Below are positions 7,158-27,382 of a stretch of 64,000 nt of DNA, piece after piece. Under the pieces are notes generated by a model that was not told the origin of the DNA, searched no databases, and worked only from the letters and a program-made list of their open reading frames with translations. This stretch comes from Escherichia phage VpaE1_ev035, in the sequence record LR699048; one strand, 5' to 3'. How positions within the stretch are numbered: the stretch's first letter is position 1; every line of letters begins with the position of its first letter. The position numbers and the translations under genes were made by a program.

Positions 7158-7937
7158 ATGGGTATTGTAAAAGTTGTGAAAGGTAATTTACTGGCTGCCT
7201 TCAAAAACACAGACATTGAACTAATTGCTCATGGTTGCAACTGTCGTAATCTCATGGGTGCTGGAATCGCTCAAAAAATTGCTAAGATTTTCCCAAAAGC
7301 AGAAGAAGCTGACCGGAAATTCCATAAGAAGTTTGGCTATAGTGCTCATGATATCGGATACCAGATGATTGGTGAAGTGTCACATGCTCGAACGGAGTAC
7401 GGTTACATTTTTAATCTATACACACAGTTGGATGTTGGGAAGTGCGCATCATACCGATACTTAGTAGAGGCACTGGAAAAACTCCGCAAGTTTTGCTGGA
7501 TGAACTCTATCCGTAAAATTGGATTACCTATGATTGGTGCAGGTATTGGGGGTTTAGATGCGGAGGCTGTAAAAAGCATCATTAATAGTGTCATGCACAA
7601 TGTTGATGTGTACCTTTACGTCTATGATAAAGAGATGGCAAGTGTAGTTACCCCTAAGTATGCTACCTCAGCACCACAATTCTATGATGGTGTCGTGCTA
7701 AGTGACGGGAAGACCAATCAAGTTACCCTCTATCAACTTGTTGAAGGTAAGGTCGAGGTTAGTTACCCTCTGGTTAGTGAGATGGGTATGTGCAACAGTG
7801 AAATGTTCCCAGTTGACCCGTTTGGAAGATATGAAGGTGTATTCTTTGATAACTACCCAGCAGCGTACATCTACACAACAAATCAGGATGAAGTTCACTA
7901 CTTGCTGTATTCTAAAAAGTTCAAATTCATAAGCTGA
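7158..7937 (+). CDS. macro-domain protein (ADP-ribose binding/processing)
   Basis: Motifs VVKGNL...IAHGCNCRNLMGAGIAQKI, IGLPMIGAGIGGLD and VYLYVYD align with canonical macro-domain motifs (VVxGDIT...NAAN..L.GGGGV.GAI, FPAIS.G.YG.P, VYFVCYD). Confidence 0.75.
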   Translation: MGIVKVVKGNLLAAFKNTDIELIAHGCNCRNLMGAGIAQKIAKIFPKAEEADRKFHKKFGYSAHDIGYQMIGEVSHARTEYGYIFNLYTQLDVGKCASYRYLVEALEKLRKFCWMNSIRKIGLPMIGAGIGGLDAEAVKSIINSVMHNVDVYLYVYDKEMASVVTPKYATSAPQFYDGVVLSDGKTNQVTLYQLVEGKVEVSYPLVSEMGMCNSEMFPVDPFGRYEGVFFDNYPAAYIYTTNQDEVHYLLYSKKFKFIS

Positions 7938-7969
7938 TTAGTACTTCACAGTATCTACAAATCATCTAA

Positions 7970-8018
7970 GAAGGCTGCCTAACCCATTGAGAAATTTAAG
8001 GTAAGGCGGCCTTTTTCA
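7970..8018 (+). terminator. putative terminator (long-loop hairpin + T run)
   Basis: AGGCTGCC ... GGCGGCCT TTTTTC, arms as in terminator 3505 but 25-nt loop. Confidence 0.35.
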
Positions 8019-8084
8019 TTTTCAATTTGTGCAGGTATCTGTAGGGGTCTGCACAGATATCCCAAAAAATCTCATCGCCGGATA

Positions 8085-8156
8085 GAAAAATCATTTTCAA
8101 AACGTGCAGACCCCGCTCAGGTCGGGCAAGAAAAATCATTTTAGAATCGTGCAGGT
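8085..8156 (+). repeat. two direct repeats AGAAAAATCATTTT(C/A)(A/G)AA(A/T)CGTGCAG
   Basis: Copies at ~8085-8110 and ~8130-8156 in the intergenic region preceding the cassette array. Confidence 0.5.
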
Positions 8157-8175
8157 AGGTTTTTATAGAGAGCCA

Positions 8176-8245
8176 GACCAACCCCTCTCCCCCTCTTACT
8201 CCCCCTGTCTCTAGAGACAGCTCTTACTCCCCCTCTCCCCAAAAG
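8176..8245 (+). other. polypyrimidine (C/T-rich) tract with embedded perfect palindrome TGTCTCTAGAGACA
   Basis: CCCCTCTCCCCCTCTTACTCCCCCTGTCTCTAGAGACAGCTCTTACTCCCCCTCTCCCC. Confidence 0.5.
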
Positions 8246-8361
8246 TCAAGAGAAAAATTTGTAGCGGATTGAAAAATAATTCTTGATTTGTGTTCTGTTT
8301 TGTGGTAGTCGTGCGCGCCCGTTTCATTACAGTTTTTCCAAAAATATTTTTAAAATTTTTC

Positions 8362-8453
8362 TTGACTCTTTGAACGGGGTTATCTAGTATTTGCATCAAC
8401 GGGAGGGAATGACCTTCCTACTAAATAAAACCCTTAAACTAGGAGATTCAAAA
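8362..8453 (+). promoter_or_regulatory. type-A leader cassette: sigma70-like promoter (TTGACT-N17-TAGTAT) + 5' stem-loop + RBS
   Basis: -35 at 8362-8367, 17-nt spacer, -10 at 8385-8390; stem-loop GGGAGGGAATGACCTTCC; leader CTAAATAAAACCCTTAAACTAGGAGATTCAAAA. Confidence 0.5.
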
Positions 8454-8834
8454 ATGGCATATCGCGCACCTAAATTCATCAATAAAGACAACTTTCGCAA
8501 CGCACTGGAGAAGTCACTTGATGAAAATTTTAAAGGTAACATTATCGTTGTTCACGCATTCAATTTTAAGTATGATGTAAACGGGAATAGAATCAACCAT
8601 TACACGGCAACCATGTTAGATGGTACACTATCAAGTGAAAAAGCCGTACTGAATGCACTAGCAGGACGCGGAAAAGTATTAGTAAGATGCGATAAGCGAC
8701 GTTATCAGGGTGGCGCATATGGTTATGATGATGCTGTTTATCATCTTGAAAATATGGGCTATAAAGTAGAAAAAACTGGGGTATCGCAAATCATCGGGAG
8801 CGATGGTTATGTAACAATCTTCAAAATTAACTGA
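8454..8834 (+). CDS. hypothetical small protein (cassette array ORF 1)
   Basis: ATG preceded by conserved leader ...CTTAAACTAGGAGATTCAAAA; ORF track frame 8391..8834. Confidence 0.55.
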   Translation: MAYRAPKFINKDNFRNALEKSLDENFKGNIIVVHAFNFKYDVNGNRINHYTATMLDGTLSSEKAVLNALAGRGKVLVRCDKRRYQGGAYGYDDAVYHLENMGYKVEKTGVSQIIGSDGYVTIFKIN

Positions 8835-8924
8835 TAAAGTACTTTACAAGGGGCTTATAGTTCGATAGAGTAAGCCCCAGATAAAGAGCTTTACCACTCA
8901 ATCCTAAATTGGAGAATCTGAAAA
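8835..8924 (+). promoter_or_regulatory. type-B leader cassette: GGGGCTTA/TAAGCCCC hairpin + conserved leader with RBS
   Basis: Hairpin GGGGCTTATAGTTCGATAGAGTAAGCCCC then AGATAAAGAGCTTTACCACTCAATCCTAAATTGGAGAATCTGAAAA. Confidence 0.45.
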
Positions 8925-9218
8925 ATGGCTATTATCAAAAACGTTGTAATTACTGCAAAAACTCGTGATGACGCTCGCGTTATGGCTAAAAAGTTATGCG
9001 GGAAAGTTGTTGACAATGGGAAAAAATCTGCTGTAAGATGGGGCGTAAAGGTTGATAAACAGTTGAAGTTAAAAAATTCACCGATAAATCTTTTTACATG
9101 TGTAAACACTATCGGGAAGACAAATGTATACACGAAAAAGGCATACATTAGACGCGTAGCATTAACATCCCCCATTCGTACAATGAGAAGTTATGCAAAG
9201 CTGAAAATTAACAAATAA
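8925..9218 (+). CDS. hypothetical small protein (cassette array ORF 2)
   Basis: Conserved type-B leader with RBS directly upstream. Confidence 0.55.
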   Translation: MAIIKNVVITAKTRDDARVMAKKLCGKVVDNGKKSAVRWGVKVDKQLKLKNSPINLFTCVNTIGKTNVYTKKAYIRRVALTSPIRTMRSYAKLKINK

Positions 9219-9303
9219 AGTACTTTACAGGGGGCTTAAAAGTTGATATCTTAAGCCCCAGATAAAGAGCTTTACCACTCAATCCTAAACTGGAGATTCT
9301 AAA
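9219..9303 (+). promoter_or_regulatory. type-B leader cassette
   Basis: Same stem (GGGGCTTAA/TTAAGCCCC) with a different loop, same downstream leader. Confidence 0.45.
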
Positions 9304-9816
9304 ATGAAAACTGTAGACGCTACCTTTGAAGTTGTAAAAGAAAAATTTTCCATCATCTACGAAGCGGTAAATTGCTACGAAGCAAGCCATAATCTTGATA
9401 ATTGGGAATTTACAGATGACCATCAAGGCGGTGTGACGATTAAAAATCCTAGCTGTCAGCGTAATGAATTTAAATATGCAATCCCTTTACATTACAGCCT
9501 TAAACAGCTTTCAAGTGACTATGCAAAACAAGGCCGGGAAAACCCATCAAAAGAGGCTTACATCAGCTTACAGAAAGAACTAGAAAGAGATTTAGAGGCT
9601 TCAGAGTACAACCTTGCCGCGAAAGTTGTGGATGCAAACGGTAACACGGTTTTAGAAAGTTTTTATCTTGGTTATGCTTTCGATTGGTGCTATCGTGACG
9701 GCGATGATTTAGAGGATAGACTAAAAGAAGAGGTGAACAATTCAGACGCAGAAACTGAAGTATTAGAACGTTTGGAATCATTGAAAGATTCAGTGATGAA
9801 TATCTTTAAGAACTAA
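9304..9816 (+). CDS. hypothetical protein (cassette array ORF 3)
   Basis: Conserved type-B leader with RBS directly upstream. Confidence 0.55.
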   Translation: MKTVDATFEVVKEKFSIIYEAVNCYEASHNLDNWEFTDDHQGGVTIKNPSCQRNEFKYAIPLHYSLKQLSSDYAKQGRENPSKEAYISLQKELERDLEASEYNLAAKVVDANGNTVLESFYLGYAFDWCYRDGDDLEDRLKEEVNNSDAETEVLERLESLKDSVMNIFKN

Positions 9817-9908
9817 ATAGATTTCTTTACACGGGGTTATCAAGCTGGTAGGATAGCCCCAGATAGAGAGATTTATCAAATAAAGCCCTTAAACTAGGAG
9901 ATTCTAAA
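9817..9908 (+). promoter_or_regulatory. type-B leader cassette (variant)
   Basis: Hairpin GGGGTTATC...GATAGCCCC (compensatory changes) followed by leader ending CTTAAACTAGGAGATTCTAAA. Confidence 0.4.
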
Positions 9909-10205
9909 ATGAAATTATCAAATCAAGTGCGTGAAAATCTGAGCAAATTACTCAACAAAATTGATTTCATTGAAACATCAAGGAATAGCCATGATGTTAT
10001 GGAATGGTTACACGGCAAAATAAAAGGTCGTCGTGTAGTGATTTGCTTATGGAACAGTTGCAGGGAGTATAAAAAACCTGTATTACAAGTCAATATCTAT
10101 GATGATACTTTTAAAAGTCCAGTAAAGTCTAAAAGCGATTTATTAGAATCTTATGAGATATCTGTAAATGGCAAAGTATCACGTAAAGAGGTAACACCAT
10201 GTTAA
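9909..10205 (+). CDS. hypothetical small protein (cassette array ORF 4)
   Basis: Conserved leader variant upstream. Confidence 0.55.
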   Translation: MKLSNQVRENLSKLLNKIDFIETSRNSHDVMEWLHGKIKGRRVVICLWNSCREYKKPVLQVNIYDDTFKSPVKSKSDLLESYEISVNGKVSRKEVTPC

Positions 10206-10531
10206 TGACTGGTATCACTGCAATCATTGCCATTTTCGCGCTATATAAGGCGTATATAGCCTATAATCTAGCAAATAAGGCAATCACACAGCAGGTTAGA
10301 AATAACCTTGTAGAGAGCTTTCTAGGGCGTCTCAGTGATGAGCAAATAAAGCGGCTAGAGATGAGCTTCAGATACAAAGCGAAAACCTATCAGATAAGTG
10401 ACATCTTCAAAGATGATTTTCAGTTAGTCGATGATTATAATTCACTAATAAATGCTTTAAATATCAGTGACTTAAAAGACTACTACGCTGTAATTGTTCA
10501 AGAATTGAGCAAACGAAAACAAAGTGTTTGA
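10199..10531 (+). CDS. hypothetical membrane-associated small protein (cassette array ORF 5)
   Basis: ATG overlaps stop of previous ORF (ATGTTAATGA), N-terminal hydrophobic segment. Confidence 0.5.
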   Translation: MLMTGITAIIAIFALYKAYIAYNLANKAITQQVRNNLVESFLGRLSDEQIKRLEMSFRYKAKTYQISDIFKDDFQLVDDYNSLINALNISDLKDYYAVIVQELSKRKQSV

Positions 10532-10620
10532 CACTGATTTTTAGATAGGCTAAATTACACATCAACGGGGAGGGAATGACCTTCCCCACTAAATAAAGTC
10601 CTAAACTGGAGATTCTGAAA
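10528..10620 (+). promoter_or_regulatory. type-A leader cassette: promoter (TTGACA-N17-TAAATT) + stem-loop + RBS
   Basis: -35 10528-10533, -10 10551-10556; stem-loop GGGGAGGGAATGACCTTCCCC; conserved leader. Confidence 0.5.
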
Positions 10621-10779
10621 ATGTTTTGTGCAGGTGATAAAGTTGTCTGGAATGATATAGATGACGGTTTATGTACGAAAGTTGTTGTTATCCTAGAAAT
10701 TGATTATATCACTGGTGTTGCAACTGTAGCAGATAATGATATAATCTTTGATGTCTTAATTAGTGAACTGTCAAAATAA
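10621..10779 (+). CDS. hypothetical 52-aa protein (cassette array ORF 6, below ORF-track cutoff)
   Basis: Manual translation MFCAGDKVVWNDIDDG...SELSK; preceded by full type-A cassette (promoter, stem-loop, RBS). Confidence 0.45.
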   Translation: MFCAGDKVVWNDIDDGLCTKVVVILEIDYITGVATVADNDIIFDVLISELSK

Positions 10780-10804
10780 AACCCTTAAACTAGGAGCTTT
10801 TAAA

Positions 10805-11077
10805 ATGTACACTACTAACAACGGTCGCACCTTAAACGTAACCCTACGCCACTATGTGAACGGTGTAATGCACTTCGAGGATTTACAAGCTGAACAGCAC
10901 ATTTTGGATTGGCAAGTTGCAGGACTCCAAAAAACTGCTACAGGATACGGGAAAAAGATTCCAACCAGTTGGAAAGTATACTACGAAGGACGTTTGCGCA
11001 GAATTTATCAAGATGTGCAAAGCAATAGCGCATCGAGTTACATTATAGTAAAAGGCAAAAAACTGCATTTAATGTAA
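10805..11077 (+). CDS. hypothetical small protein (cassette array ORF 7)
   Basis: ATG after conserved CTTAAACTAGGAGCTTTTAAA leader; ORF track frame 10763..11077. Confidence 0.5.
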   Translation: MYTTNNGRTLNVTLRHYVNGVMHFEDLQAEQHILDWQVAGLQKTATGYGKKIPTSWKVYYEGRLRRIYQDVQSNSASSYIIVKGKKLHLM

Positions 11078-11163
11078 AGTACTTTACAAGGGGCTTATAG
11101 TTCGATAAAGTAAGCCCCAGATAAAGAGCTTTACTACTCAATCCTAAATTGGAGAACTTAAAA
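11078..11163 (+). promoter_or_regulatory. type-B leader cassette
   Basis: Near-identical to 8835-8924. Confidence 0.45.
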
Positions 11164-11568
11164 ATGGCTATTAATAACCGTGAATTATCAATTTTAAAAG
11201 CACGTTTGACCGTCAACAGGATTAATGTTCTGACATCATCAGCGCCTGATGAAACATTGCACAACATTATCGGGAAGATTCAAAGTGTTATCTTAGACGT
11301 TGAAAATGTAAAAAGTTCATTGGCTGACGTTGCATCAGGTATCACGCTAGACGGCGCGCAATATGAAATGTCAGACATGTTAGGCAAATCTAAGGTAATG
11401 AATAAAGAGTTAGATTTGAAAATGTTCCGATTTGCTGTTAAAGTGTGGTTATCTGTCGAGTATGATGCTAACTTTGCAATCGCTGACTTTTTCGCCACTT
11501 GGTTGCAGCGTAATTTGTCAAATCACGATTTTCGTAATATCTGCGATGCAATTTATGCAGAACTCTAA
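11164..11568 (+). CDS. hypothetical protein (cassette array ORF 8)
   Basis: ATG after type-B leader; ORF track frame 11149..11568. Confidence 0.55.
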   Translation: MAINNRELSILKARLTVNRINVLTSSAPDETLHNIIGKIQSVILDVENVKSSLADVASGITLDGAQYEMSDMLGKSKVMNKELDLKMFRFAVKVWLSVEYDANFAIADFFATWLQRNLSNHDFRNICDAIYAEL

Positions 11569-11587
11569 AAAAATTGTTGACACTTAT

Positions 11588-11669
11588 TTTTAGATAGATT
11601 AAATTACACATCAACGGGGAGGGATTAACCTTCCCCACTAAATAAAGTCCTTAAACTAGGAGATTCAAA
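11588..11669 (+). promoter_or_regulatory. type-A leader cassette: promoter (TTGACA-N17-TAAATT) + stem-loop + RBS
   Basis: -35 11588-11593, -10 11611-11616; stem-loop GGGGAGGGATTAACCTTCCCC. Confidence 0.5.
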
Positions 11670-11918
11670 ATGATGAATTTTTTAAATATCCCTGATACTT
11701 GCCGACTGTTGACGCAACCAGAAAATTTAGGCAAACCTTTCCTGTACCATATGCCAGACAATACACCAAAAACATATAGCTACACAGTTAACCGCTTTAC
11801 GGGTTACGCTGCAAAAAACGGTTACAAGGTTACTACTCAAAAAGTAACACTATTTACAAATATCGAAGAGCTTCCAACAATCGCTGTAAAACTAATATTT
11901 ACGAAGAAGACGCAATAA
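11670..11918 (+). CDS. hypothetical small protein (cassette array ORF 9)
   Basis: Full type-A cassette upstream. Confidence 0.5.
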   Translation: MMNFLNIPDTCRLLTQPENLGKPFLYHMPDNTPKTYSYTVNRFTGYAAKNGYKVTTQKVTLFTNIEELPTIAVKLIFTKKTQ

Positions 11919-12003
11919 AGTACTTTACAAGGGGCTTAAAAGTTGATATCTTAAGCCCCAGATAAAGAACTTTACCACTAAATCCTAAACTGGAGATTCT
12001 AAA
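11919..12003 (+). promoter_or_regulatory. type-B leader cassette
   Basis: Near-identical to 9219-9303. Confidence 0.45.
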
Positions 12004-12546
12004 ATGAAATGTTTTCACGGTACTACTCAAGAAAATTTCCTCAACCTGATTAATAACGGTGATAAACCATCAGGCGCATGGAATTGTTCGGATATGGACG
12101 GCAATTTTTACGTGTATCCAGAAAATAAAATCTATGGCGACGATGAGGAAGAAATAGCATCAGAGGGCATTCAGCAAGCTCTAGGTAATGCCACTATCAC
12201 CGCAGCTTTTCAGATGAAGACTCAAAATATTGTTATCTTAGAACTCGATATTCCAGAGGATGAGCTAAACGATGATTATTCTTGTGATAATATGTCGAGT
12301 GTAGCAAGTTTTACAGAGTACTTTGATGTAAATTGGATTAAAAAGGTCTATACAACAGAGTTTAACGCTATGTATTCACCTTTTTGTCTTCCTTCATTGG
12401 ATAACCCAAATTTAAACTATCTTGATGAGTCTCTGGAGCTTCTTGCTAAAAGTGTTCAACAGTCGGACAGTATTCAGGTTTTTTGTGACATCATGGATAC
12501 ACTGACAGGAAACATTGCAGAAGAGGATTTAAAGAGCTTTTTCTAA
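12004..12546 (+). CDS. hypothetical acidic protein (cassette array ORF 10)
   Basis: Type-B leader upstream. Confidence 0.55.
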   Translation: MKCFHGTTQENFLNLINNGDKPSGAWNCSDMDGNFYVYPENKIYGDDEEEIASEGIQQALGNATITAAFQMKTQNIVILELDIPEDELNDDYSCDNMSSVASFTEYFDVNWIKKVYTTEFNAMYSPFCLPSLDNPNLNYLDESLELLAKSVQQSDSIQVFCDIMDTLTGNIAEEDLKSFF

Positions 12547-12577
12547 AAACCTATACAATCACCTTATAAACACTAAT

Positions 12578-12600
12578 CAGCCCCTTGTAGGGGCTTTTAG
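12578..12600 (+). terminator. hairpin/weak terminator
   Basis: CAGCCCCT-TGT-AGGGGCT followed by TTTAG. Confidence 0.35.
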
Positions 12601-12612
12601 GGGGCTTAAATC

Positions 12613-12846
12613 ATGCTTACAACCGTTTACCTTATCCTTTCTATTTGTAATGGCCATTCATGTGATTTTAAAGGGCTTGAGGAGTTCACAGGAAGTAAAG
12701 AAAATGCTATTCAAGTTTGCCAGATAGCAAGGCAAGACTATCCCGCAAGTGATGATATTCAGTGTTACTTTAAGACAGAAGATGACGACGGAATCTATTT
12801 CGATAGTGTTGATGGTCAGTATGAGATTATCATTGAAAAAGACTAG
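12613..12846 (+). CDS. hypothetical small protein (cassette array ORF 11)
   Basis: ORF track; preceded by hairpin 12578-12596. Confidence 0.45.
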   Translation: MLTTVYLILSICNGHSCDFKGLEEFTGSKENAIQVCQIARQDYPASDDIQCYFKTEDDDGIYFDSVDGQYEIIIEKD

Positions 12847-12937
12847 ACAAGCCTGATAAAAGTCTGTAAATTGTCAATCAACGGGGAGGAAATGACCTCC
12901 CCCACTAAATAAAGTCCTTAAACTAGGAGATTCAAAA
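12847..12937 (+). promoter_or_regulatory. type-A leader cassette (no clear -35)
   Basis: TAAATTGTCAATCAACGGGGAGGAAATGACCTCCCCC + conserved leader. Confidence 0.4.
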
Positions 12938-13279
12938 ATGGCTTATGTAACCGTAATTACCGATAAAGCTGGCGCATCTTGGTCAACTCAAGTAAGTGAT
13001 AAGATGTCACCTATGCAGTGCCTAAAATACTTTGAACAGTGGAACAAAGGCGAGGACACAAGCCCCTTTCAAGTGATGCAGATTATCCATGTAGATAACG
13101 AAGGGAATAAAACGGTTTTAAATAGTGAGTACTACGCAAGCCGTTTTGAAACGAGAAGTAAAACAATGAAGCTTTTACGTGAATCCGGTTATGCCCATAT
13201 CGCCGCGTTAATCTGGGATGACCTGCTAAAAAACCAACGTATCAGCTATGTAAAACCTGAAAAAATATTCATCAGTTAA
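12938..13279 (+). CDS. hypothetical protein (cassette array ORF 12)
   Basis: Type-A stem-loop and leader upstream. Confidence 0.55.
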   Translation: MAYVTVITDKAGASWSTQVSDKMSPMQCLKYFEQWNKGEDTSPFQVMQIIHVDNEGNKTVLNSEYYASRFETRSKTMKLLRESGYAHIAALIWDDLLKNQRISYVKPEKIFIS

Positions 13280-13429
13280 TCAATAACTTACAAAAAACTT
13301 TTAAAAAAGTGTTGACAATACCCCTTGACATTGGTAACTTTGTTCGAGGGGGTTTATCTAAAAGGGATTCACTTAAAAGATTCTTTATAGATAAACTTAA
13401 AAAATTGCTTGCAATCAGCTATCAAAACA

Positions 13430-13499
13430 AGTAAATTACTAATTAACGGAAGGGATGACCTCCCCACTAAACAAAGTCCTTAAACTAGGAGATTCTAAA
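13430..13499 (+). promoter_or_regulatory. type-A leader cassette
   Basis: TAAATTACTAATTAACGGAAGGGATGACCTCCCC + conserved leader; TTGACA boxes further upstream at ~13311 and ~13325. Confidence 0.4.
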
Positions 13500-14030
13500 A
13501 TGAACAAGTTTAAAGCTATCAACTATATTCGTTCAAATAGCGTAATGTCTAAGCCTGTTAAAGATACCTATGAATTTAGTTGTAATGGGGTACACTTTGC
13601 AACCATTACCAAATCAGAAAACGGGGCTTATTACATTCATCGCCGTAATGTTTCTACTGTTGTAGTCTCTCACTTTATGCAAGCTGTAGCGGAATTATTA
13701 CCGTTATTCTTAGAGATTTACTTAGATGAGTGTAAAAACGTTCACAACCACGTTAAAAACCTTTTAAATGGTTATAAAATGACTTATGAACGTTCTATTC
13801 ATAATTTGAACAAGTTCTATAAAGCCCCTGAAAATACTGTGTCAATAGCTTATGATGTAAGCGGTGAAATGGTCAACCTCTCCAATGTAGAACAAATTAA
13901 CCTTTATAATTTACGTCCTAGTGGTTACTCTAAGACTCTTGGTGAAGGTTTAACGTTCAATATCAAGAACTTAGAAAAAACTTTAAAAGATATTGAAAAA
14001 GATATTGACGAGACACTTAAAAGTCTGTAA
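13500..14030 (+). CDS. hypothetical protein (cassette array ORF 13)
   Basis: ATG after conserved leader; ORF track frame 13455..14030. Confidence 0.55.
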   Translation: MNKFKAINYIRSNSVMSKPVKDTYEFSCNGVHFATITKSENGAYYIHRRNVSTVVVSHFMQAVAELLPLFLEIYLDECKNVHNHVKNLLNGYKMTYERSIHNLNKFYKAPENTVSIAYDVSGEMVNLSNVEQINLYNLRPSGYSKTLGEGLTFNIKNLEKTLKDIEKDIDETLKSL

Positions 14031-14096
14031 ATTGTCAATCAACGGGGAGGGAATGACCTTCCCCACTAAATAAAGTCCTAAACTGGAGTTATCAAG
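14031..14096 (+). promoter_or_regulatory. type-A leader cassette
   Basis: TAAATTGTCAATCAACGGGGAGGGAATGACCTTCCCC + leader. Confidence 0.4.
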
Positions 14097-14360
14097 ATGG
14101 AAAACGTAGAATTAACCACACTTTTACAAATTGCAACTGACAAAGAAGATGTAGCATTATTTCACCGTATCGAAAGCGATTTGTTCAATGATGAAATCAT
14201 CAAAGAATCTTATGAAGTTGTCGGATTCAAAGATGGTAAAGCGTTTGGATTCTTTGACCTCGACAAAGGCAACGCTGTTACAAAGTATGATGTTTTGTCT
14301 TGTGAGATTCTTACAAAATACAACGAAAAAAGGCTTGCAACATACGCCAATATGCAGTAA
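14097..14360 (+). CDS. hypothetical small acidic protein (cassette array ORF 14)
   Basis: Type-A stem-loop and leader upstream. Confidence 0.5.
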   Translation: MENVELTTLLQIATDKEDVALFHRIESDLFNDEIIKESYEVVGFKDGKAFGFFDLDKGNAVTKYDVLSCEILTKYNEKRLATYANMQ

Positions 14361-14426
14361 ATTACTAATCAACGGGAGGCGATAACCTCCCCACTAAATA
14401 AAACCCTTAAACTAGGAGATTCAAAA
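14361..14426 (+). promoter_or_regulatory. type-A leader cassette
   Basis: TAAATTACTAATCAACGGGAGGCGATAACCTCCCC + leader (compensatory stem changes). Confidence 0.4.
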
Positions 14427-14675
14427 ATGGCAACTATCCGCGCTACTGTTAACGAGTTCGGTTTTTCCTCTCTGGATGTTAAATTTGACATTGCAGGCAC
14501 TGATAACGCCTTTGAAATGGTGAAAGGTCTTATCAGTCAGACCATCAAAGATTATAATCCTTCGGATGAGTTCTGGGAGGAAACAAAACAAGAAGTTCTC
14601 AAGGATGGTTATACTTATCACTATTGGGGAGAAAAAATCGTCTCCCTGTACTACAACAAACAAGATTATAACTAA
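14427..14675 (+). CDS. hypothetical small protein (cassette array ORF 15)
   Basis: Type-A stem-loop and leader upstream; followed by tandem hairpins/terminator. Confidence 0.5.
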   Translation: MATIRATVNEFGFSSLDVKFDIAGTDNAFEMVKGLISQTIKDYNPSDEFWEETKQEVLKDGYTYHYWGEKIVSLYYNKQDYN

Positions 14676-14683
14676 TCGACGCA

Positions 14684-14739
14684 GCGGGGCTAAATAGCCC
14701 CAGATACCTTTTACAGCCCCTCATAGGGGCTTTTTTACG
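14684..14739 (+). terminator. tandem hairpins ending in rho-independent terminator (end of + strand early block)
   Basis: GGGGCTA-AA-TAGCCCC then AGCCCCT-CAT-AGGGGCT + T6. Confidence 0.7.
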
Positions 14740-14744
14740 TCTAT

Positions 14745-16280
14745 CGAATCCTTATACAATCCCTTTCCAGAATCTTATCAGACCTTAAAAACAATAACTC
14801 TATAGTCTACTCTATAACCTTTTATCAAATCAACTTAAATAAAAGCCAATAACCCCAGAAAGGGGATGGCCCATTTAAACGCTCTATAAAGCTCTATAAC
14901 AGCCTTATCAACCTAACTTAAGGGATTGCATTAACCTATCTTAAAAAAGCTCTTTACAGGGCTTTATAGAGCCTTAAAAGAATCTTATAAGGGCGTAAGC
15001 TTTATCATCTCATTAGTATTCTTGTGAATAACTAAACAACCCCCTTGATAGTCACTAAAAAGTATGTTATAGGGGCTTTAAAGTTACTTTGAAGTAGCTT
15101 AAAAGTTACGTAAAAGAGGCTATAAAGTTACGTAAATGCTAGCCCCCTTAACATTTTCTTAACAATTTCTTAACAATCCCTACATAGTTATGCTTTTAAG
15201 GCACTTGTTAGCACCTTGTTAAATCTCTGTTAAGACCACGTAAAAGCCTTGTAAGAGTCTTTGACATAGCCTTAAAAGCTCCTGTAAAGCTCTATAAAGA
15301 GGTGTTTGTACAGTTGGGGGATAGATACTAGGAAGAGGCTTAAAAGAGCTTATAAAGAGCTATAGAGAGCTTTTAAAAGGTATGTTTAAGGAATCACTAA
15401 GAAAGGAAAGGGAACGATAAGAAAGAGATAGTGACCATGTTAATAGCTTGTTAAAAAGATTAAACACTTGTTAGAAACTTGTTAATTATCTTAACAAAAT
15501 AACTCTTAAAAATTAACTTGTTAGCTCTTGTTAGTCATCTGTTAAGCCTCTGTAAAGACTATTCAGCAACTGTTAAGAGACTGTTACAGCCTTGTTAGTT
15601 CTGTTAAGAATCTGTTAAGACCTTTGAAGAGTTGTTAAGAAGATGTGAGAACTGTTAAGAGATTGTTAAGGATATTTTAAAATTTTGCAAAGTACTTGTA
15701 AGGGAGTTGTTAAGGGCTACCAAGCAGATATACATCTTCTACAGATATTTTTCAGTTCCTTCAAAGACCCTAAAAAATGACTTGACAGTCCTATTTTATA
15801 AAAATTTTAAGATTCTGAATAATTACCTATACAGTCTTTTAAAAATACAGGTAGAAACAGGCTTATAAGATACCTTGTTAGTACCGTGTTAGACCTTGTG
15901 AGATAAGGTCTGTAAAGATATTCCTGTTAAGTTTGTTAAAACAGTCTATATAGAGGCTTAGTATTTCCTAGTGAACACCTATAGAGAGTATCATAGCTGA
16001 CATAGAGATTAAGAGGTGTATAGGAGCTTCTAAGAAGGTGTAGAGAGATGGTTAAGGTGATTGTATAGGTTGTTAAGAAGGCTTGTTAGAAGAGTGTTTA
16101 GATGGCTATTTAGAAGGGCTATACAGAGGGCTATTAAGACCACTAGATAGTTACTAAGATACTATATAGTACTATATAACTATATATAGAGAGTAAGATT
16201 AAGAAGGTTGTTAAGAAGGATAGATATTTTATTCACATATGATGGTGACCCAGAGGTTGGGACAACCGATAAAATTTTAT
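14745..16280. other. 1.5-kb gene-free convergent intergenic region, AT-rich, dense in short repeats
   Basis: No ORF of 60 aa or more in any frame; bounded by terminators of the converging + and - strand blocks; clusters of CT(N)TA(A/T)AAG and TGTTA(A/G) motifs. Confidence 0.7.
15438..15672 (+). repeat. phased iteron-like array: ~16 copies of (C)TGTTA(A/G)(G/A)
   Basis: TGTTA starts at 15438, 15449, 15469, 15480, 15519, 15529, 15540, 15571, 15582, 15593, 15602, 15613, 15633, 15653, 15664; spacings are multiples of ~10-11 bp. Confidence 0.7.
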
Positions 16281-16282
16281 AA

Positions 16283-16314
16283 AAATTAAAAAGCCCCCGA
16301 TTAAGGAGGCTCTT
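16283..16314 (-). terminator. rho-independent terminator for minus-strand block
   Basis: On minus strand GAGCCUCC-UUAAUC-GGGGGCUU followed by U-rich run; sits just past stop of 16323 gene. Confidence 0.5.
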
Positions 16315-16322
16315 AAGATATT

Positions 16323-16916
16323 TTAAATCAGTGTTTCCAGAACTGTTTTTAATGATGACTTGGTTGTCTGATAAAAATGAGTAAATCCATTGTTGTTATC
16401 AAATACCTGCATCATGATATCATCTCCCTTGATTGGGTACACTCGGATATCATAGTGAAAACCATTAAAGACACAAGAACCACTACAGAATGCTCTAAAG
16501 TCATCCACTGAGATGTACTCTTCATGACCTGTGATTTTTATACAAACACCTTTACTCGGTCTCTTAGGGTTGATATCTTCCATCACAGACATACTCTGTC
16601 CACCAAGAGATACCATAGTGACCACTTTACGGTTCTTCTGTTTAAAGTACATCTTAACTTTCTGCAAAGTGTCTTCATAGAACGGATAAGACCTTTCTAC
16701 AAAGATTCCTTCAAGTGGCTCTTTACCATTTTCAACTTCTCTGTTATGCCGTACTGCAAAGATAATTTGTTCGAACCAGTCAAGATTTTCTTCGGAGAGT
16801 GCTTCCCGAATATCACTCCAATCAAGAACTAGATAGTTACCTTCAACTTCTTTTAAGTTATCTTTTTCCATATCTATCACACCATTATCGTAAAACTTGG
16901 TAAGCTGGAACTGCAA
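16323..16916 (-). CDS. hypothetical protein
   Basis: ORF track, 197 aa. Confidence 0.5.
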   Translation of the reverse strand: MQFQLTKFYDNGVIDMEKDNLKEVEGNYLVLDWSDIREALSEENLDWFEQIIFAVRHNREVENGKEPLEGIFVERSYPFYEDTLQKVKMYFKQKNRKVVTMVSLGGQSMSVMEDINPKRPSKGVCIKITGHEEYISVDDFRAFCSGSCVFNGFHYDIRVYPIKGDDIMMQVFDNNNGFTHFYQTTKSSLKTVLETLI

Positions 16917-26230: not shown

Positions 26231-26307
26231 CTCTGTTTAGCTCAGCTTGGTAGAGCGTTCCGTTTGGGGCGGTAAGGCCGGAGGTTCAAGTCCTCCAACA
26301 GAGACCA
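26231..26307 (+). tRNA. tRNA-Pro (anticodon UGG)
   Basis: Manual cloverleaf: acceptor CTCTGTT/AACAGAG (C1-G72), D-arm AGCTCAGCTTGGTAGAGC, loop UUUGGGG, T-arm GGAGG-TTCAAGT-CCTCC, encoded CCA. Confidence 0.75.
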
Positions 26308-26314
26308 AATTAAT

Positions 26315-26392
26315 GTTCCAGTGGACAAAATGGTAAAGTCACCACTCTTTCAAAGTGGATATTTGAGGGTTCAAATCCCTTCTGGAACGCCA
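26315..26392 (+). tRNA. tRNA-Glu (anticodon UUC)
   Basis: Acceptor GTTCCAG/CTGGAAC, anticodon stem CCACT/AGTGG with loop CUUUCAA, T-loop TTCAAAT, CCA. Confidence 0.75.
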
Positions 26393-26397
26393 GTTTT

Positions 26398-26475
26398 GAC
26401 AGAAGACCAATTACAGCAAGTTTAATCTTATTCATCTGAAGGTAAATCGGACAAAGAAGAGATTTGGTCTGGTCA
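26398..26475 (+). ncRNA. conserved structured tRNA-spacer element, copy 1
   Basis: 5' box GACAGAAGACCAATTACAGCAAG and 3' box TTTGGTCTGGTC fold as lower helix GAC/GUC, internal loop AGA opposite G, upper helix AGACCAA/UUGGUCU; ~43-nt apical region. Confidence 0.45.
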
Positions 26476-26483
26476 TTAAGAAT

Positions 26484-26560
26484 TGCGGGTATAGAGAAAT
26501 GGCGTCTCACATGTCTCATTAGCATGGTATCGGCAGGTTCGACTCCTGCACCCGCCTCCA
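26484..26560 (+). tRNA. tRNA-Met or Ile2 (anticodon CAU), non-canonical 1:72 pair
   Basis: Anticodon stem CATGT/GCATG, loop CUCAUUA; T-arm GCAGG-TTCGACT-CCTGC; acceptor pairs 6/7 with position 1 unpaired; CCA. Confidence 0.55.
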
Positions 26561-26564
26561 ATTT

Positions 26565-26629
26565 TGCAGAAGACCGTATTCAGCAACAAAATACTTTTTG
26601 CGGATAAAAGAAAAAACACGGTCTGGCAA
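26565..26629 (+). ncRNA. conserved structured tRNA-spacer element, copy 2
   Basis: 5' box TGCAGAAGACCGTATTCAGCAAC, 3' box ACACGGTCTGGCA; lower helix UGC/GCA (compensatory vs copy 1), same AGA/G internal loop, upper helix AGACCGU/ACGGUCU. Confidence 0.45.
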
Positions 26630-26637
26630 TGTATTAA

Positions 26638-26714
26638 GGTTAGGAAGCACATAAGGTATGTGCGGTCGCCTGTTAAGCGAATGGCACAGGGTTCGAATCC
26701 CTGACTAACCGCCA
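26638..26714 (+). tRNA. tRNA-Asn (anticodon GUU)
   Basis: Acceptor GGTTAGG/ACTAACC, D-stem GCAC/GTGC, loop CUGUUAA, T-arm CAGGG-TTCGAAT-CCCTG, CCA. Confidence 0.75.
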
Positions 26715-26783
26715 AATTTAGGAGAGAAGCGATTGCTCACCGATTTGTAAGGTGCAAGTCCTTAGCCTGAATAGAAATTAAAT

Positions 26784-26871
26784 GTGTCGTTATCCCGTAG
26801 ATGGTAGCGGTGGGGACTGTAAATCCCTTGTCATTGAGACTCGGTAGGTTCGACTCCTACACGGCACACCA
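26784..26871 (+). tRNA. tRNA-Tyr (anticodon GUA), long variable arm
   Basis: Acceptor GTGTCGT/ACGGCAC, anticodon stem GGGA/TCCC with loop CUGUAAA, ~16-nt variable arm, T-arm GTAGG-TTCGACT-CCTAC, CCA. Confidence 0.7.
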
Positions 26872-26876
26872 ATAAA

Positions 26877-26954
26877 GGTTATGTAGTTTAATTTGGTTAA
26901 AATACTCCCCTGTCACGGGAGATGATGAGGGTTCAAATCCCTTCGTAACCGCCA
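26877..26954 (+). tRNA. tRNA-Asp (anticodon GUC)
   Basis: Acceptor GGTTATG/CGTAACC, anticodon stem CTCCC/GGGAG with loop CUGUCAC, T-loop TTCAAAT, CCA. Confidence 0.75.
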
Positions 26955-27012
26955 ATTTTGAGAGGGCTATTTAGCCCCTCCCTTAAAGGGTTCTTACGAG
27001 TATCCTTTAAAG

Positions 27013-27092
27013 GAGCAGAAGACCAAATACAGCAAGTTACTTAAAATTTCAAGCCAATTTAATTTTGAAAAATTTAAAACTTGGTCTGGCTC
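27013..27092 (+). ncRNA. conserved structured tRNA-spacer element, copy 3
   Basis: 5' box GAGCAGAAGACCAAATACAGCAAG, 3' box CTTGGTCTGGCTC; lower helix GAGC/GCUC, AGA/G internal loop, upper helix AGACCAA/UUGGUCU. Confidence 0.45.
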
Positions 27093-27097
27093 AACAA

Positions 27098-27236: not shown

Positions 27237-27382
27237 TTATCTTTGTAGATAAGTTATTAAGCTTACCTGTGAGTATGCGACCACAAAGGGTGAAAGGGTA
27301 AATTCTAGATTTAAACCCAAAAAGGCACATCGCTACAGACCTTAAGCAAGTCTGGGTAGCTTATCTACAAAGATAATTTAAT

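What the first reader, a model, noticed from the sequence alone, without database searches (positions are those of the whole stretch)
8362..14740. Hyperplastic array of 15 small ORFs, each preceded by one of two conserved modular leader cassettes
About 6.4 kb encodes 15 unrelated small proteins (52-180 aa). Each is preceded by a type-A cassette (promoter, 5' stem-loop GGGGAGGGAATGACCTTCCCC, leader with AGGAG) or a type-B cassette (hairpin GGGGCTTA...TAAGCCCC plus an almost identical leader). Stems vary with compensatory changes while loops differ, so the hairpin structure is conserved. This resembles the promoter-early-stem-loop modules described in T4-type hyperplastic regions. Such payloads are often host-takeover or anti-defence genes.
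Basis: partly seen in the sequence, partly recalled or inferred. Interest (0 to 1): 0.7.

Follow-up and report, generated by a model that had tools for sequence, protein, structure and literature searches.

The report
Promoter-hairpin cassettes shuffling phage genes
In this Felix O1-type phage genome, 15 small genes of unknown function are separated by repeated 60-100-base promoter/stem-loop/ribosome-site cassettes, and related phages differ by whole genes gained or lost exactly at these cassettes; this is the design known as PeSL from T4-type phages, here found in a different phage family.

Summary
The window is a Felixounavirus (Felix O1-like) genome. The array is real: 15 plus-strand genes (52-180 aa) lie at 8454-14675. 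No two are detectably related, none has a Pfam match, and the PHROG matches all read 'unknown function'. Twelve genes, not all fifteen, have a full cassette: 7 type A, 4 type B and 1 B/A hybrid. One gene has only the leader and two have nothing. Type A is a sigma-70 promoter (17-nt spacer, -10 TAAATT), then exactly 10 nt, a G-run/C-run hairpin and a shared leader. Type B was under-described. It also holds a promoter (TTTACA-17-TAnnnT in all 51 copies examined), and it sits inside a 59-nt, 20-bp three-helix structure with covariation across four genera. The cassettes occur nowhere else in the 64 kb. None of 255 related phage records matches the array end to end, whereas 210-246 records do so for control segments. 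Eleven of 12 kinds of gene-loss junction keep exactly one cassette, and loss of one gene shows two different crossover points. This meets every sequence-testable criterion of T4-type PeSLs. PeSLs have not been described for Ounavirinae in the searchable literature. Hairpin function and payload function remain inferred. Verdict: a new member of a known kind, of moderate interest.

The parts
8362..14737 (+). Whole array: 15 small genes, 13 cassette-type intergenic elements, one internal and one terminal terminator
8362..8453 (+). Type A cassette 1. -35 TTGACT 8362-8367, -10 TAGTAT 8385-8390, hairpin 8401-8418, SD AGGAG 8441-8445. AT-rich UP-like tract lies just upstream.
8454..8834 (+). Gene 1, 126 aa, PHROG 4495, unknown function
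8835..8924 (+). Type B cassette. Three-helix structure 8835-8893, -35 TTTACA 8843-8848, upper hairpin 8850-8878, -10 TAGAGT 8866-8871, SD 8910-8914.
8925..9218 (+). Gene 2, 97 aa, unknown function
9216..9303 (+). Type B cassette. Structure 9216-9274, -35 9224-9229, hairpin 9231-9259, -10 TATCTT 9247-9252 with TG upstream, SD 9291-9295.
9304..9816 (+). Gene 3, 170 aa, unknown function
9818..9908 (+). Hybrid cassette: the B 5' half (stem variant GGGGTTATC/GATAGCCCC, -10 TAGGAT 9849-9854) joined to an A-type leader (AAATAAAGCCCTTAAACTAGGAG)
9909..10205 (+). Gene 4, 98 aa, unknown function
10199..10531 (+). Gene 5, 110 aa. Overlaps gene 4 by 7 nt and has no cassette (translationally coupled).
10528..10620 (+). 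Type A cassette. -35 TTGACA 10528-10533 overlaps the stop codon of gene 5. -10 TAAATT 10551-10556, hairpin 10567-10587, SD 10607-10611.
10621..10779 (+). Gene 6, 52 aa, no family. Present in 6 of 11 arrays.
10780..10804 (+). Leader-only element (AACCCTTAAACTAGGAGCTTTTAAA). The stop codon of gene 6 lies inside the leader motif AAATAAA.
10805..11077 (+). Gene 7, 90 aa, unknown function
11075..11163 (+). Type B cassette. Structure 11075-11133, -35 11083-11088, hairpin 11090-11118, -10 TAAAGT 11106-11111.
11164..11568 (+). Gene 8, 134 aa, unknown function
11577..11669 (+). Type A cassette. -35 TTGACA 11577-11582, -10 TAAATT 11600-11605, hairpin 11616-11636.
11670..11918 (+). Gene 9, 82 aa, unknown function. 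Present in 4 of 11 arrays.
11916..12003 (+). Type B cassette. Structure 11916-11974, -35 11924-11929, hairpin 11931-11959, -10 TATCTT 11947-11952.
12004..12546 (+). Gene 10, 180 aa. Invariant H5-G-T, Y36/Y38 and E80. Weak ADP-ribosyltransferase-fold hint.
12578..12598 (+). Internal terminator-like hairpin CAGCCCCTTGTAGGGGCTTTT. It replaces a cassette in front of gene 11.
   Evidence: (D16)
12613..12846 (+). Gene 11, 77 aa, unknown function
12844..12937 (+). Type A cassette. -35 TAGACA 12844-12849 contains the stop codon of gene 11. -10 TAAATT 12867-12872, hairpin 12883-12903.
12938..13279 (+). Gene 12, 113 aa, unknown function
13409..13499 (+). Type A cassette. -35 TTGCAA 13409-13414, -10 TAAATT 13432-13437, weakened hairpin 13448-13465.
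13500..14030 (+). Gene 13, 176 aa, unknown function
14005..14096 (+). Type A cassette. -35 TTGACG lies inside the coding end of gene 13. -10 TAAATT 14028-14033 contains that gene's stop codon. Hairpin 14044-14064.
14097..14360 (+). Gene 14, 87 aa, unknown function. Absent from Felix O1 and fBSPA4.
14335..14426 (+). Type A cassette. -35 TTGCAA lies inside gene 14. -10 TAAATT 14358-14363 contains that gene's stop codon. Hairpin 14374-14392 (stem variant GGGAGG/CCTCCC).
14427..14675 (+). Gene 15, 82 aa, unknown function
14686..14706 (+). Degenerate half of a type B cassette (GGGGCTAAATAGCCCC + AGATA), with no promoter and no loop
14715..14737 (+). Canonical intrinsic terminator AGCCCCTCATAGGGGCT followed by TTTTTT, closing the array

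Best explanation
The segment is the early-gene 'hyperplastic region' of a Felix O1-like phage. It is built from composite regulatory cassettes of the PeSL kind.

Shown from sequence:
- Each cassette supplies a host-type (sigma-70) promoter, a stable G-run/C-run stem-loop, and a shared 5' leader with a GGAG ribosome-binding site for the next gene.
- In type A the hairpin starts exactly 10 nt after the -10 box. It therefore sits about 2-3 nt from the predicted 5' end of the cassette's own transcript.
- In type B the promoter (TTTACA-17-TAnnnT) is embedded in a 59-nt, 20-bp interrupted hairpin. That hairpin begins at the stop codon of the upstream gene, so it can form only on RNA read through from upstream.
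- Relatives differ by whole genes, with a single cassette left at nearly every junction.

Inferred:
- The type A hairpin acts as a 5'-terminal stabiliser of the mRNA.
- The type B structure attenuates or processes read-through RNA and caps the 3' end of the upstream message. Every gene then gets roughly its own transcription unit at early times.
- Because about 60-90 bp of near-identical sequence recurs every 250-600 bp in direct orientation, homologous recombination between cassettes (within a genome or between co-infecting relatives) deletes, inserts and swaps single genes while always restoring a working promoter, leader and ribosome site.
For: Promoters:
- All 7 type A copies have a 17-nt spacer and -10 TAAATT or TAGTAT. 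The distance from the -10 box to the hairpin is invariant at 10 nt.
- All 51 type B copies from 11 genomes have TAnnnT placed 17 nt (49 copies) or 16 nt (2 copies) after TTTACA, although the surrounding loop sequence differs.
- The consensus scan independently lists 6 of the 7 type A sites and all 5 type B sites.

Structure:
- All 38 distinct type A variants fold, with dG from -5.4 to -16.6 kcal/mol.
- For the B upper stem, 98.7% of 387 cells are paired and 5 of 9 pairs change on both sides across four genera.
- For the full three-helix B structure, 97.7% of 1380 cells are paired, 7 pairs change on both sides, and slid controls reach at most 56%.

Confinement: cassettes occur only at 8387-14429 of the 64 kb.

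Hyperplasticity: 0 of 255 related records cover at least 80% of the array in one place. For same-size control segments the figures are 246 of 299 and 210 of 277.

Recombination:
- Gene order is collinear and the differences are presence or absence of genes.
- 11 of 12 kinds of gene-skipping junction retain exactly one normal cassette.
- Loss of gene 14 has two different crossover points: before the hairpin in Felix O1 and after it in fBSPA4.
- Leader-duplication scars and hybrid A/B cassettes occur.
- The junction upstream of gene 8 carries five different hairpin/loop variants in different phages.

Early expression: Felix O1 RT-PCR puts the homologues of genes 3, 8, 12 and 13 at maximum 5 min after infection (PMC3185647).

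Match to the PeSL definition.
Against: - No transcription start, termination, processing or recombination was measured for this phage.
- Neither hairpin is followed by a U-run, so classical intrinsic termination is unlikely.
- Total promoter-like matches in the region are not enriched over shuffles (30 against 22.1 +/- 4.5). The case therefore rests on position and conservation, not on count.
- The antisense strand of the B element folds equally well (-22.8 against -22.6 kcal/mol), so a DNA-level role for the dyad is not excluded.
- Many of the covarying cells descend from a few stem lineages, so they do not represent many independent events.
- Survivorship could favour junctions that keep a working promoter and ribosome site without cassette-guided recombination. 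One deletion (gene 4 lost in GEP101 and fBSPA4) is not cassette-mediated.
- Felix O1 RT-PCR puts the homologues of genes 4, 7 and 15 at maximum 25 min, not 5 min.
- Within-genome identity of B cassettes barely exceeds between-genus identity (82.8% against 79%), so concerted evolution is weak.
Confidence: 0.75

Rival explanations
1. The type B element is chiefly an RNA-processing site of the T7 early-region kind. Read-through RNA folds into the 20-bp interrupted helix. A double-strand-specific nuclease (RNase III) cuts in the 3x3 internal loop. The upstream mRNA is left capped by the upper hairpin, and the downstream mRNA gets nearly the same 5' end (AGAUAAAG...) as transcripts started at the embedded promoter. 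This can coexist with the best explanation; it replaces only the 'attenuator' role.
For: All 69 distinct copies fold into lower (6 bp), middle (5 bp) and upper (9 bp) helices with 1x1 and 3x3 internal loops, at about -22 kcal/mol. Pairing is conserved, with both-side changes in the lower and upper helices. There is no U-run for intrinsic termination. The predicted start of the B promoter falls on the 3' side of the internal loop. The size and geometry resemble T7 RNase III sites, but this comparison rests on my own knowledge and was not tested.
Against: No cleavage data exist. The middle helix CTTTA/TAAAG is nearly invariant and overlaps the -35 box, so its conservation may be promoter-driven rather than structural. 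RNase III determinants and antideterminants were not evaluated. The PeSL stem-loop that was tested experimentally in RB49/phi1 behaved as a terminator, not as a processing site.
Confidence: 0.3
2. The hairpins are ordinary rho-independent terminators and the promoters are ordinary promoters. This is how the GenBank record of phage ASO1A annotates type A ('promoter' followed by 'rho-independent terminator'). On this view the repeats have no role in gene shuffling.
For: ASO1A annotation. A PeSL stem-loop reduced reporter expression as strongly as rrnB T1.
Against: Neither hairpin has a T-run: ACTAAATA follows type A and AGATAAAG follows type B. The terminator scan finds only 14715-14731 on the plus strand. 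A terminator 2-3 nt after its own transcription start would act on every transcript of that promoter. Junction analysis shows that cassettes are the crossover points.
Confidence: 0.1
3. The dyad-symmetric elements are DNA operators for a phage or host regulator. An example would be a dimeric repressor that shuts off early promoters. The apparent RNA structure would then be a by-product of palindromic binding sites.
For: The B element has extended dyad symmetry flanking the promoter: TAAAGTACTTTA over the -35 box and TAAAGAGCTTTA at +3. It gives reverse-strand profile hits. The antisense strand folds equally well. Related short motifs (YTGTWAR) are massively repeated in the adjacent ORF-free 14,740-16,290.
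Against: Stem bases change while pairing is kept (G-C to U-A, U-A to A-U). This is unexpected for sequence-specific protein contacts. Wobble pairs (U.G in 60 of 69 copies at one lower-helix pair and 25 of 69 at one upper-helix pair) are mismatches in a duplex palindrome. The type A stem sequence is replaced outright in other genera while its position is kept. No regulator was identified.
Confidence: 0.1
4. The repeats are only relics of an ancient tandem amplification of one gene-plus-promoter unit whose coding parts diverged beyond recognition. Selection for expression signals keeps them similar. Presence/absence differences arise by ordinary illegitimate deletion filtered by selection.
For: Gene order is collinear in four genera. 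Cassette identity between genera (about 79%) is close to that within a genome (about 83%), so there is little sign of ongoing homogenisation. One deletion is not cassette-mediated.
Against: The 19 pan-array protein families show no similarity. The same junction carries different hairpin and leader variants in different phages. Hybrid A/B cassettes occur. Two distinct crossover points explain the same gene loss, and junctions are precise with exactly one cassette left. All of these require exchange between cassettes.
Confidence: 0.1
5. The cassettes are autonomous mobile elements (MITE-like or homing elements) that insert between genes.
For: They are short and repeated, they have dyad symmetry, and they are intergenic.
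Against: There are no terminal inverted repeats beyond the hairpin, no target-site duplications and no associated nuclease or transposase. All copies have one orientation and sit in one 6-kb segment. Copies are absent from the other 58 kb. They are found only in Ounavirinae phages among 50,697 phage records, apart from one Staphylococcus- and one Campylobacter-labelled record that I did not inspect.
Confidence: 0.03

Closest known systems
PeSLs (promoter-early stem-loops) of T4-type phages RB49/phi1, T4/PST and KVP40/nt-1 (Arbiol et al. 2010, PMC2839356; Comeau et al. 2014, PMC4122927)
   Same: [quoted passage not shown] Both have an AT-rich tract, a sigma-70-like promoter, a stem-loop rich in G-runs then C-runs (with G.T pairs), and an SD plus ATG. 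Type B places the stem-loop between and over the -35 and -10 boxes, which is the commonest PeSL subclass. Type A places it just downstream of the -10 box, another listed subclass. Both cluster among ORFans in a hypervariable region. Indels between relatives are bounded by the elements. Degraded 'half' copies exist. The type B -35 TTTACA equals the T4/PST PeSL -35 consensus TTTACW.
   Different: The host family differs (Ounavirinae, not T4-like) and there is no sequence homology. Only two cassette types occur, and they share one long conserved leader. Type B is a 20-bp three-helix structure rather than a simple hairpin. In three type A copies the -35 box and spacer lie inside the upstream coding sequence and the -10 box contains its stop codon. 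Gene order is strictly collinear across genera. Promoter activity, terminator activity and mini-circles have not been tested here.
RNase III processing sites between the early genes of phage T7 (own knowledge, not tested here)
   Same: Both are intercistronic, roughly 60-nt interrupted hairpins with an internal loop, lying in a host-RNA-polymerase-transcribed early region of small non-essential genes. Such a site could leave a 3' hairpin on the upstream message.
   Different: T7 sites carry no embedded promoter and are not recombination repeats. No cleavage evidence exists here.
5'-terminal stem-loop mRNA stabilisers such as the ompA 5' UTR hairpin (own knowledge)
   Same: The type A hairpin is predicted to start 2-3 nt from the transcript 5' end. 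This is the geometry that protects against 5'-end-dependent decay.
   Different: The transcription start is predicted, not mapped. Half-lives are unknown.
Integron gene-cassette arrays with attC sites
   Same: Both are arrays of unrelated small ORFs in one orientation, separated by structured imperfect-palindrome repeats at which cassettes are gained and lost.
   Different: There is no integrase and no attI. Each gene here has its own promoter. Exchange is presumably by general homologous recombination. The analogy is functional only.
Direct repeats already annotated in Felix O1 and wV8
   Same: These are the same sequences. The Felix O1 paper lists the 57-bp (type B) and 39-bp (type A promoter) repeats. 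The wV8 GenBank record marks DR_1 to DR_9. ASO1A marks 'promoter' and 'terminator'.
   Different: None of these sources interprets them as composite cassettes, notes the embedded type B promoter or the three-helix structure, or links them to gene gain and loss. The Felix O1 paper states that temporal regulation is unknown.

Membership tests
PeSL (promoter-early stem-loop cassette) | [quoted passage not shown] | tested here: met
   Twelve cassettes fill intergenic regions of 66-101 nt (the cassette before gene 13 occupies the last 91 nt of a 220-nt region). Three type A copies reach into the upstream coding end.
PeSL (promoter-early stem-loop cassette) | Sigma-70-like -35/-10 promoter with an AT-rich upstream tract | tested here: met
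   Type A: TTGACA-like, 17-nt spacer, TAAATT. Type B: TTTACA, 17-nt spacer, TAnnnT in 51 of 51 copies. A/T-rich sequence lies upstream. This is sequence evidence only.
PeSL (promoter-early stem-loop cassette) | Stable stem-loop with a G-tract then a C-tract, at a fixed position relative to the promoter | tested here: met
   All 38 type A variants and all 24 Felixounavirus type B variants (upper hairpin) fold, and all 69 extended type B copies from four genera fold. The type A hairpin lies 10 nt after the -10 box. The type B hairpin spans the spacer and the -10 box.
PeSL (promoter-early stem-loop cassette) | Shine-Dalgarno sequence and start codon at the 3' end | tested here: met
   A/TGGAG lies 8-10 nt before the ATG in all 13 elements.
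PeSL (promoter-early stem-loop cassette) | Concentrated in a hyperplastic region of ORFans | tested here: met
   Cassettes occur only at 8.4-14.4 kb. 0 of 255 relatives cover the array, against 210-246 for control segments. All 15 genes are of unknown function.
PeSL (promoter-early stem-loop cassette) | Insertions, deletions and replacements between close relatives are bounded by the elements | tested here: met
   11 of 12 junction kinds keep a single cassette. Two different crossover points are seen for one gene loss. Hybrids and scars occur.
PeSL (promoter-early stem-loop cassette) | Measured promoter activity and terminator/attenuator activity | not testable with these tools
   Needs reporter fusions or transcript mapping.
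PeSL (promoter-early stem-loop cassette) | Excision of cassette-flanked genes as mini-circles | not testable with these tools
   Needs inverse PCR on infected cells or virion DNA.
PeSL (promoter-early stem-loop cassette) | Occurs in T4-like phages (the group in which the family was defined) | tested here: not met
   The host genome is a Felixounavirus, subfamily Ounavirinae. This concerns taxonomic scope, not mechanism.
Rho-independent (intrinsic) terminator | GC-rich hairpin immediately followed by a U-run | tested here: not met
   No T-run follows the type A or type B hairpins. Only 14715-14737 qualifies on the plus strand.
RNase III processing site (T7 early type) | About 20 bp of interrupted double helix with an internal loop | tested here: met
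   6 + 5 + 9 bp with 1x1 and 3x3 internal loops, conserved in 69 copies.
RNase III processing site (T7 early type) | Cleavage by RNase III | not testable with these tools
   Needs rnc mutants or an in-vitro cleavage assay.
Rfam RNA families | Match to any curated covariance model | tested here: not met
   There is no match in 8362-14740 at E <= 1. The only hit in the searched range 7900-16600 is a chance-level match at 7969-8023.
Integron cassette array | Tyrosine-recombinase integrase and an attI site next to the array | tested here: not met
   The upstream neighbour is a Macro-domain protein. The annotated neighbourhood in relatives holds rII, polynucleotide kinase and spanin genes, and no integrase is annotated.

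The most novel reading that the evidence does not exclude
The type B element may be a dual-use device. One 59-nt stretch would be, as DNA, a sigma-70 promoter. As RNA read through from upstream, it would be an RNase III-type processing and 3'-capping structure whose cut site coincides with the promoter's start site. Primary and processed transcripts of each gene would then share one 5' leader. Together with type A, these cassettes would act across the whole subfamily Ounavirinae as integrase-free 'attC-like' exchange points for a conserved-order menu of early genes.
Probability: 0.2. Interest if true: 0.6.

Novelty: new member of a known kind. Interest (0 to 1): 0.4.

Why it matters
It extends the PeSL principle (regulatory cassettes that double as recombination sites) from T4-like phages to an unrelated group of phage-therapy and typing phages: Felix O1, wV8, the Bas63-type phages, Mooglevirus, Suspvirus and Erwinia phages. 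This suggests a convergent, general way for virulent phages to keep an exchangeable tool-kit of early genes.

Practically, it does four things:
- It gives a rational map of where the 15-19 accessory early genes can be removed or replaced without breaking expression.
- It explains why no two sequenced relatives share the same array.
- It offers strong, compact promoter/leader modules.
- It proposes early promoters for a phage whose transcription programme was described as unknown.

It also corrects database annotation, where the elements appear as 'direct repeats' or as 'terminators'.

Tried and rejected
- Rfam, gathering thresholds on the whole window and E <= 1 on 7900-16600: no family for the cassettes.
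- Pfam and PHROGs on all 15 proteins: nothing informative.
- Paralogy among array proteins by BLASTP and phmmer: none found.
- Type A loop ATG (GGAGGGAATGACC...TAA) as a leader peptide: rejected. The codon is ATA in about 30% of copies and the reading frame is not conserved.
- Strand assignment of the structures from folding energy: inconclusive. Sense and antisense are equal for type B, and type A differs by only 1.5 kcal/mol.
- Concerted evolution of cassettes within genomes: only a weak signal (82.8% against 79%), so not claimed.
- MAFFT alignment of type B hairpins mis-registered the 1-nt-shorter stem variant. I re-registered it by padding the loop and spacer with N. The N pads touch no paired column.
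- Literature: nothing on Felixounavirus transcriptomes or on PeSLs outside T4-like phages was found. The wV8 paper text does not mention the repeats.
- Physical genome ends near 8.2 kb: not resolved.

Full report
**What the window is.** Megablast of 8300-14800 finds 255 phage records. Nearly all are Escherichia, Salmonella, Shigella or Citrobacter phages of the genus Felixounavirus and its relatives in the subfamily Ounavirinae. The window also carries the 24-gene tRNA cluster typical of these phages. The finding lies directly downstream of a Macro-domain gene (7158-7937) and its terminator. It lies upstream of a 1.55-kb ORF-free stretch.

**Checking the observation.** Fifteen plus-strand genes lie between 8454 and 14675. 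Their sizes are 126, 97, 170, 98, 110, 52, 90, 134, 82, 180, 77, 113, 176, 87 and 82 aa.
- None has a Pfam match. Fourteen fall in PHROG families labelled 'unknown function', and the 52-aa gene falls in none.
- The 19 families of the pan-array show no similarity to one another: best BLASTP E = 0.65 and no phmmer hit.
- The repeats are real. The repeat finder returns the A, B, promoter and leader families.
- The leader core occurs 7 times against 0.03 expected. The A hairpin and the B core each occur 4 times against 0 expected.
- Profile HMMs built from 56 type A and 46 type B copies find full-length matches only between 8387 and 14429 in the 64 kb.

The statement that each ORF has a cassette is too strong.
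- Seven genes have type A cassettes and four have type B.
- The gene at 9909 has a hybrid: the B 5' half joined to an A-type leader.
- The gene at 10805 has only the 25-nt leader.
- The gene at 10199 overlaps its neighbour by 7 nt and has no cassette.
- The gene at 12613 follows a terminator-like hairpin and has a different ribosome-binding site.

**Anatomy of type A.**
- All seven copies have a -35 box (TTGACA, TTGACT, TTGACG, TTGCAA or TAGACA), exactly 17 nt of spacer, and -10 TAAATT (TAGTAT in the first copy).
- Exactly 10 nt (...ATCAAC) then separate the -10 box from a 6-8-bp G-run/C-run hairpin.
- The leader follows: ACTAAATAAAGTCCTTAAACTAGGAGATTCAAAA-ATG.
- A start 7-9 nt after the -10 box would put the hairpin 2-3 nt from the 5' end. 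This is an inference; no start site has been mapped.
- All 38 distinct type A variants collected from 11 genomes fold at that place (dG -5.4 to -16.6 kcal/mol). They include 21 G.U pairs with G always in the 5' arm.
- In other genera the stem sequence is replaced while its position is kept. Examples are GGGGAGG-GAAA-CTTCCCC, GGGGC...GCCCC and GGGA...TCCC in Mordin, GGGC...GCCC and GGGGAAG...CTTCCCC in SUSP2, and GGTTGA...TCAACC in an Erwinia phage.
- In the copies at 12844, 14005 and 14335 the promoter is interlocked with the upstream gene. In the last two the -35 box and spacer are coding sequence and -10 TAAATT contains the stop codon. In the first the -35 box contains the stop codon.

**Anatomy of type B.** Two things were missed.
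- Type B has a promoter. Every one of 51 copies has TTTACA followed 17 nt later (49 copies) or 16 nt later (2 copies) by TAnnnT (TAAAGT, TATCTT, TAAGAT, TAGGAT, TACCTT, TAGAGT, TACAGT or TATGAT). The loop in which this hexamer lies differs otherwise. The consensus scan lists all five window copies. The hairpin therefore lies between and over the -35 and -10 boxes, the position Arbiol et al. call the commonest for PeSLs.
- The hairpin is only the top of a larger structure. From the stop codon onward, TAAAGT-A-CTTTA-CAA-GGGGCTTAN...NTAAGCCCC-AGA-TAAAG-A-GCTTTA folds into three helices of 6, 5 and 9 bp with 1x1 and 3x3 internal loops. Its energy is about -22 kcal/mol in all 69 distinct copies from four genera.
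- On a structure-registered alignment, 97.7% of 1380 cells are paired and seven pairs change on both sides. Sliding the partner by one column drops pairing to 51-56%.
- The upper helix alone gives 98.7% paired, with five of nine pairs changing on both sides. Within Felixounavirus it gives 99.1% paired and three pairs.
- Caveats apply. The covarying cells descend from a few stem lineages. The middle helix is nearly invariant and overlaps the -35 box. The antisense strand folds equally well.
- Because the predicted start of the B promoter lies 3' of the upper hairpin, the whole structure can exist only on RNA read through from upstream.

**Neither hairpin is a classical terminator.** No T-run follows either one. 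The scan finds just one plus-strand intrinsic terminator in the region, at 14715-14737, which closes the array. A degenerate half of a type B cassette lies just before it at 14686-14706.

**Comparative evidence.** I fetched the same region from ten other Felixounavirus genomes and from wV8. I also fetched it from Citrobacter phage Mordin (Mooglevirus), SUSP2 (Suspvirus) and Erwinia phage Coenus.
- Gene order is collinear everywhere. Arrays differ by presence or absence of single genes or blocks.
- None of 255 records covers at least 80% of the array in one place. Same-size control segments are covered in 246 of 299 records (structural genes) and 210 of 277 records (the adjacent rII side).
- Among the 11 Felixounavirus arrays compared there are 12 kinds of junction that skip pan-array genes. 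Eleven keep exactly one cassette of normal length.
- Loss of gene 14 occurred at least twice. In Felix O1 the crossover lies between the stop/-10 and the hairpin. In fBSPA4 it lies between the hairpin and the leader.
- BPS17L1 and VpaE1_ev78 carry leaders with a duplicated 3' module, which are recombination scars.
- The 52-aa gene 6 and TH10's unique gene are joined to the next gene by a leader-only element, as expected for exchange inside the leader.
- Whether a junction is type A or type B follows the upstream gene. The leader variant (CCTTAAACTAGGAG or CCTAAACTGGAG) varies at the same junction. The 9->10 junction (family numbers; window genes 7->8) carries five different hairpin/loop variants in different phages.
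- One deletion is not cassette-mediated: gene 4 is lost in GEP101 and fBSPA4.
- Both cassette types occur in Mooglevirus and Suspvirus. Erwinia phages have a B-like element (stem GGTG...CACC, a compensated change) with their own leader.

**Most likely mechanism.**
- Shown from sequence: the cassettes have the parts and the spacing of host-type promoters, conserved stem-loops and a common ribosome-binding leader. They are also the places where relatives differ.
- Inferred: host RNA polymerase starts at every cassette early in infection.
- Inferred: the type A hairpin protects the 5' end of the transcript.
- Inferred: the type B structure acts on read-through RNA. It could attenuate, as was measured for a PeSL stem-loop. 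Alternatively it could be a processing and 3'-capping site whose cut would coincide with the B promoter's start.
- Inferred: recombination between the direct repeats deletes, inserts and swaps genes while regenerating a functional cassette.
- Experimental support is indirect. Felix O1 RT-PCR shows the homologues of genes 3, 8, 12 and 13 peaking at 5 min, but those of genes 4, 7 and 15 peaking at 25 min.
- The PhageMaP preprint on Bas63 describes this part of a Felixounavirus genome as small hypothetical genes of varying essentiality.

**Comparison with what is known.** The closest match is the PeSL family of T4-type phages.
- All sequence-testable PeSL criteria are met. Even the type B -35 box (TTTACA) equals the T4/PST PeSL consensus TTTACW.
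- There are five differences. The phage family is different. Two cassette types share one long leader. The type B structure has three helices. Some type A promoters are interlocked with upstream coding ends. Gene order is strictly conserved.
- Promoter activity, terminator activity and mini-circles could not be tested.
- The sequences themselves were already noticed, but only as 'direct repeats' in the Felix O1 paper, as DR features in wV8, and as promoter/terminator features in ASO1A.
- The Felix O1 paper says it is not known how transcription is regulated.
- In the searchable literature PeSLs are discussed only for T4-like phages.
- I therefore rate this a new member of a known kind, of moderate interest.

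**Payloads.** Nothing supports or refutes the idea of host-takeover or anti-defence functions.
- The one lead is gene 10 (12004-12546). Its family is confined to Ounavirinae.
- It has invariant H5-G-T, Y36/Y38 and E80.
- This is a weak hint of an ADP-ribosyltransferase fold. It is notable because a Macro-domain gene lies about 400 nt upstream of the array.

Noticed in passing
window 14740-16290: This 1.55-kb ORF-free stretch, conserved as a gap in all relatives, is packed with a short iteron YTGTWAR (TGTTAAG, CTTGTTA, CTGTAAAG). There are 28 plus-strand copies against 2.6 expected, most often 11 bp apart or multiples of 11 bp. It is a candidate origin or protein-binding array. The reverse complement of the motif resembles the type B -35 region (CTTTACA).
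   Followed up: partly
window 13280-13499: This 220-nt intergenic region inside the array is conserved in Mooglevirus and Suspvirus. It has its own promoter-like site (TTGACA-17-TAACTT at 13312) and then a 49-nt long hairpin at 13350-13398 (dG -20 kcal/mol, z = -2.96). It may be a small RNA or a regulatory leader. The 41-aa ORF called there is probably spurious.
   Followed up: partly
[not shown]
   Followed up: partly
window 8000-8360: The non-coding lead-in to the array has repeated motifs (AAAAATCATTTT..GTGCAG twice; a GTGCAGG...CTGCAC dyad) and a C-rich tract CCCTCTCCCCCTCTTACTCCCCCT. Several GenBank relatives start their linear records here (TH10 position 1 corresponds to about window 8219). 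It may lie near a physical genome end; this was not resolved.
   Followed up: no
window 8410-8431, 10576-10596 and other type A loops: The type A loop often reads GGAGGGAATGACC. This gives an SD-like GGAGG plus an ATG that opens a mini-ORF (MTFPTK*) or runs in frame into the gene (ORF listing starts at 8391 and 13455). It is not conserved: the codon is ATA in about 30% of copies and the frames differ.
   Followed up: yes
L012 (Citrobacter phage Mordin) 2645-2780: Two type B cassettes lie in tandem with no gene between them (143-nt intergenic region). This is an 'empty' cassette pair, consistent with loss of the intervening ORF.
   Followed up: no
window leaders, e.g. 8432-8445 and 10598-10611: Both leader variants keep a 3-bp mini-hairpin that pairs part of the SD (CCT-TAAACT-AGG or TCC-TAAACT-GGA). 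The probability that the SD is unpaired is 0.02-0.55 in predicted 5' UTRs. Five of the 15 genes start ATGGC(T/A) and three start ATGAAA.
   Followed up: partly
window 26231-31440: A cluster of 24 tRNA genes lies on the plus strand (Rfam RF00005, 31.7-65.2 bits).
   Followed up: no
window 14686-14706: A degenerate half of a type B cassette (GGGGCTAAATAGCCCC-AGATA, with no -35 box and no loop) lies immediately before the terminal terminator. It is comparable to the 'half PeSLs' described for T4-type phages.
   Followed up: partly
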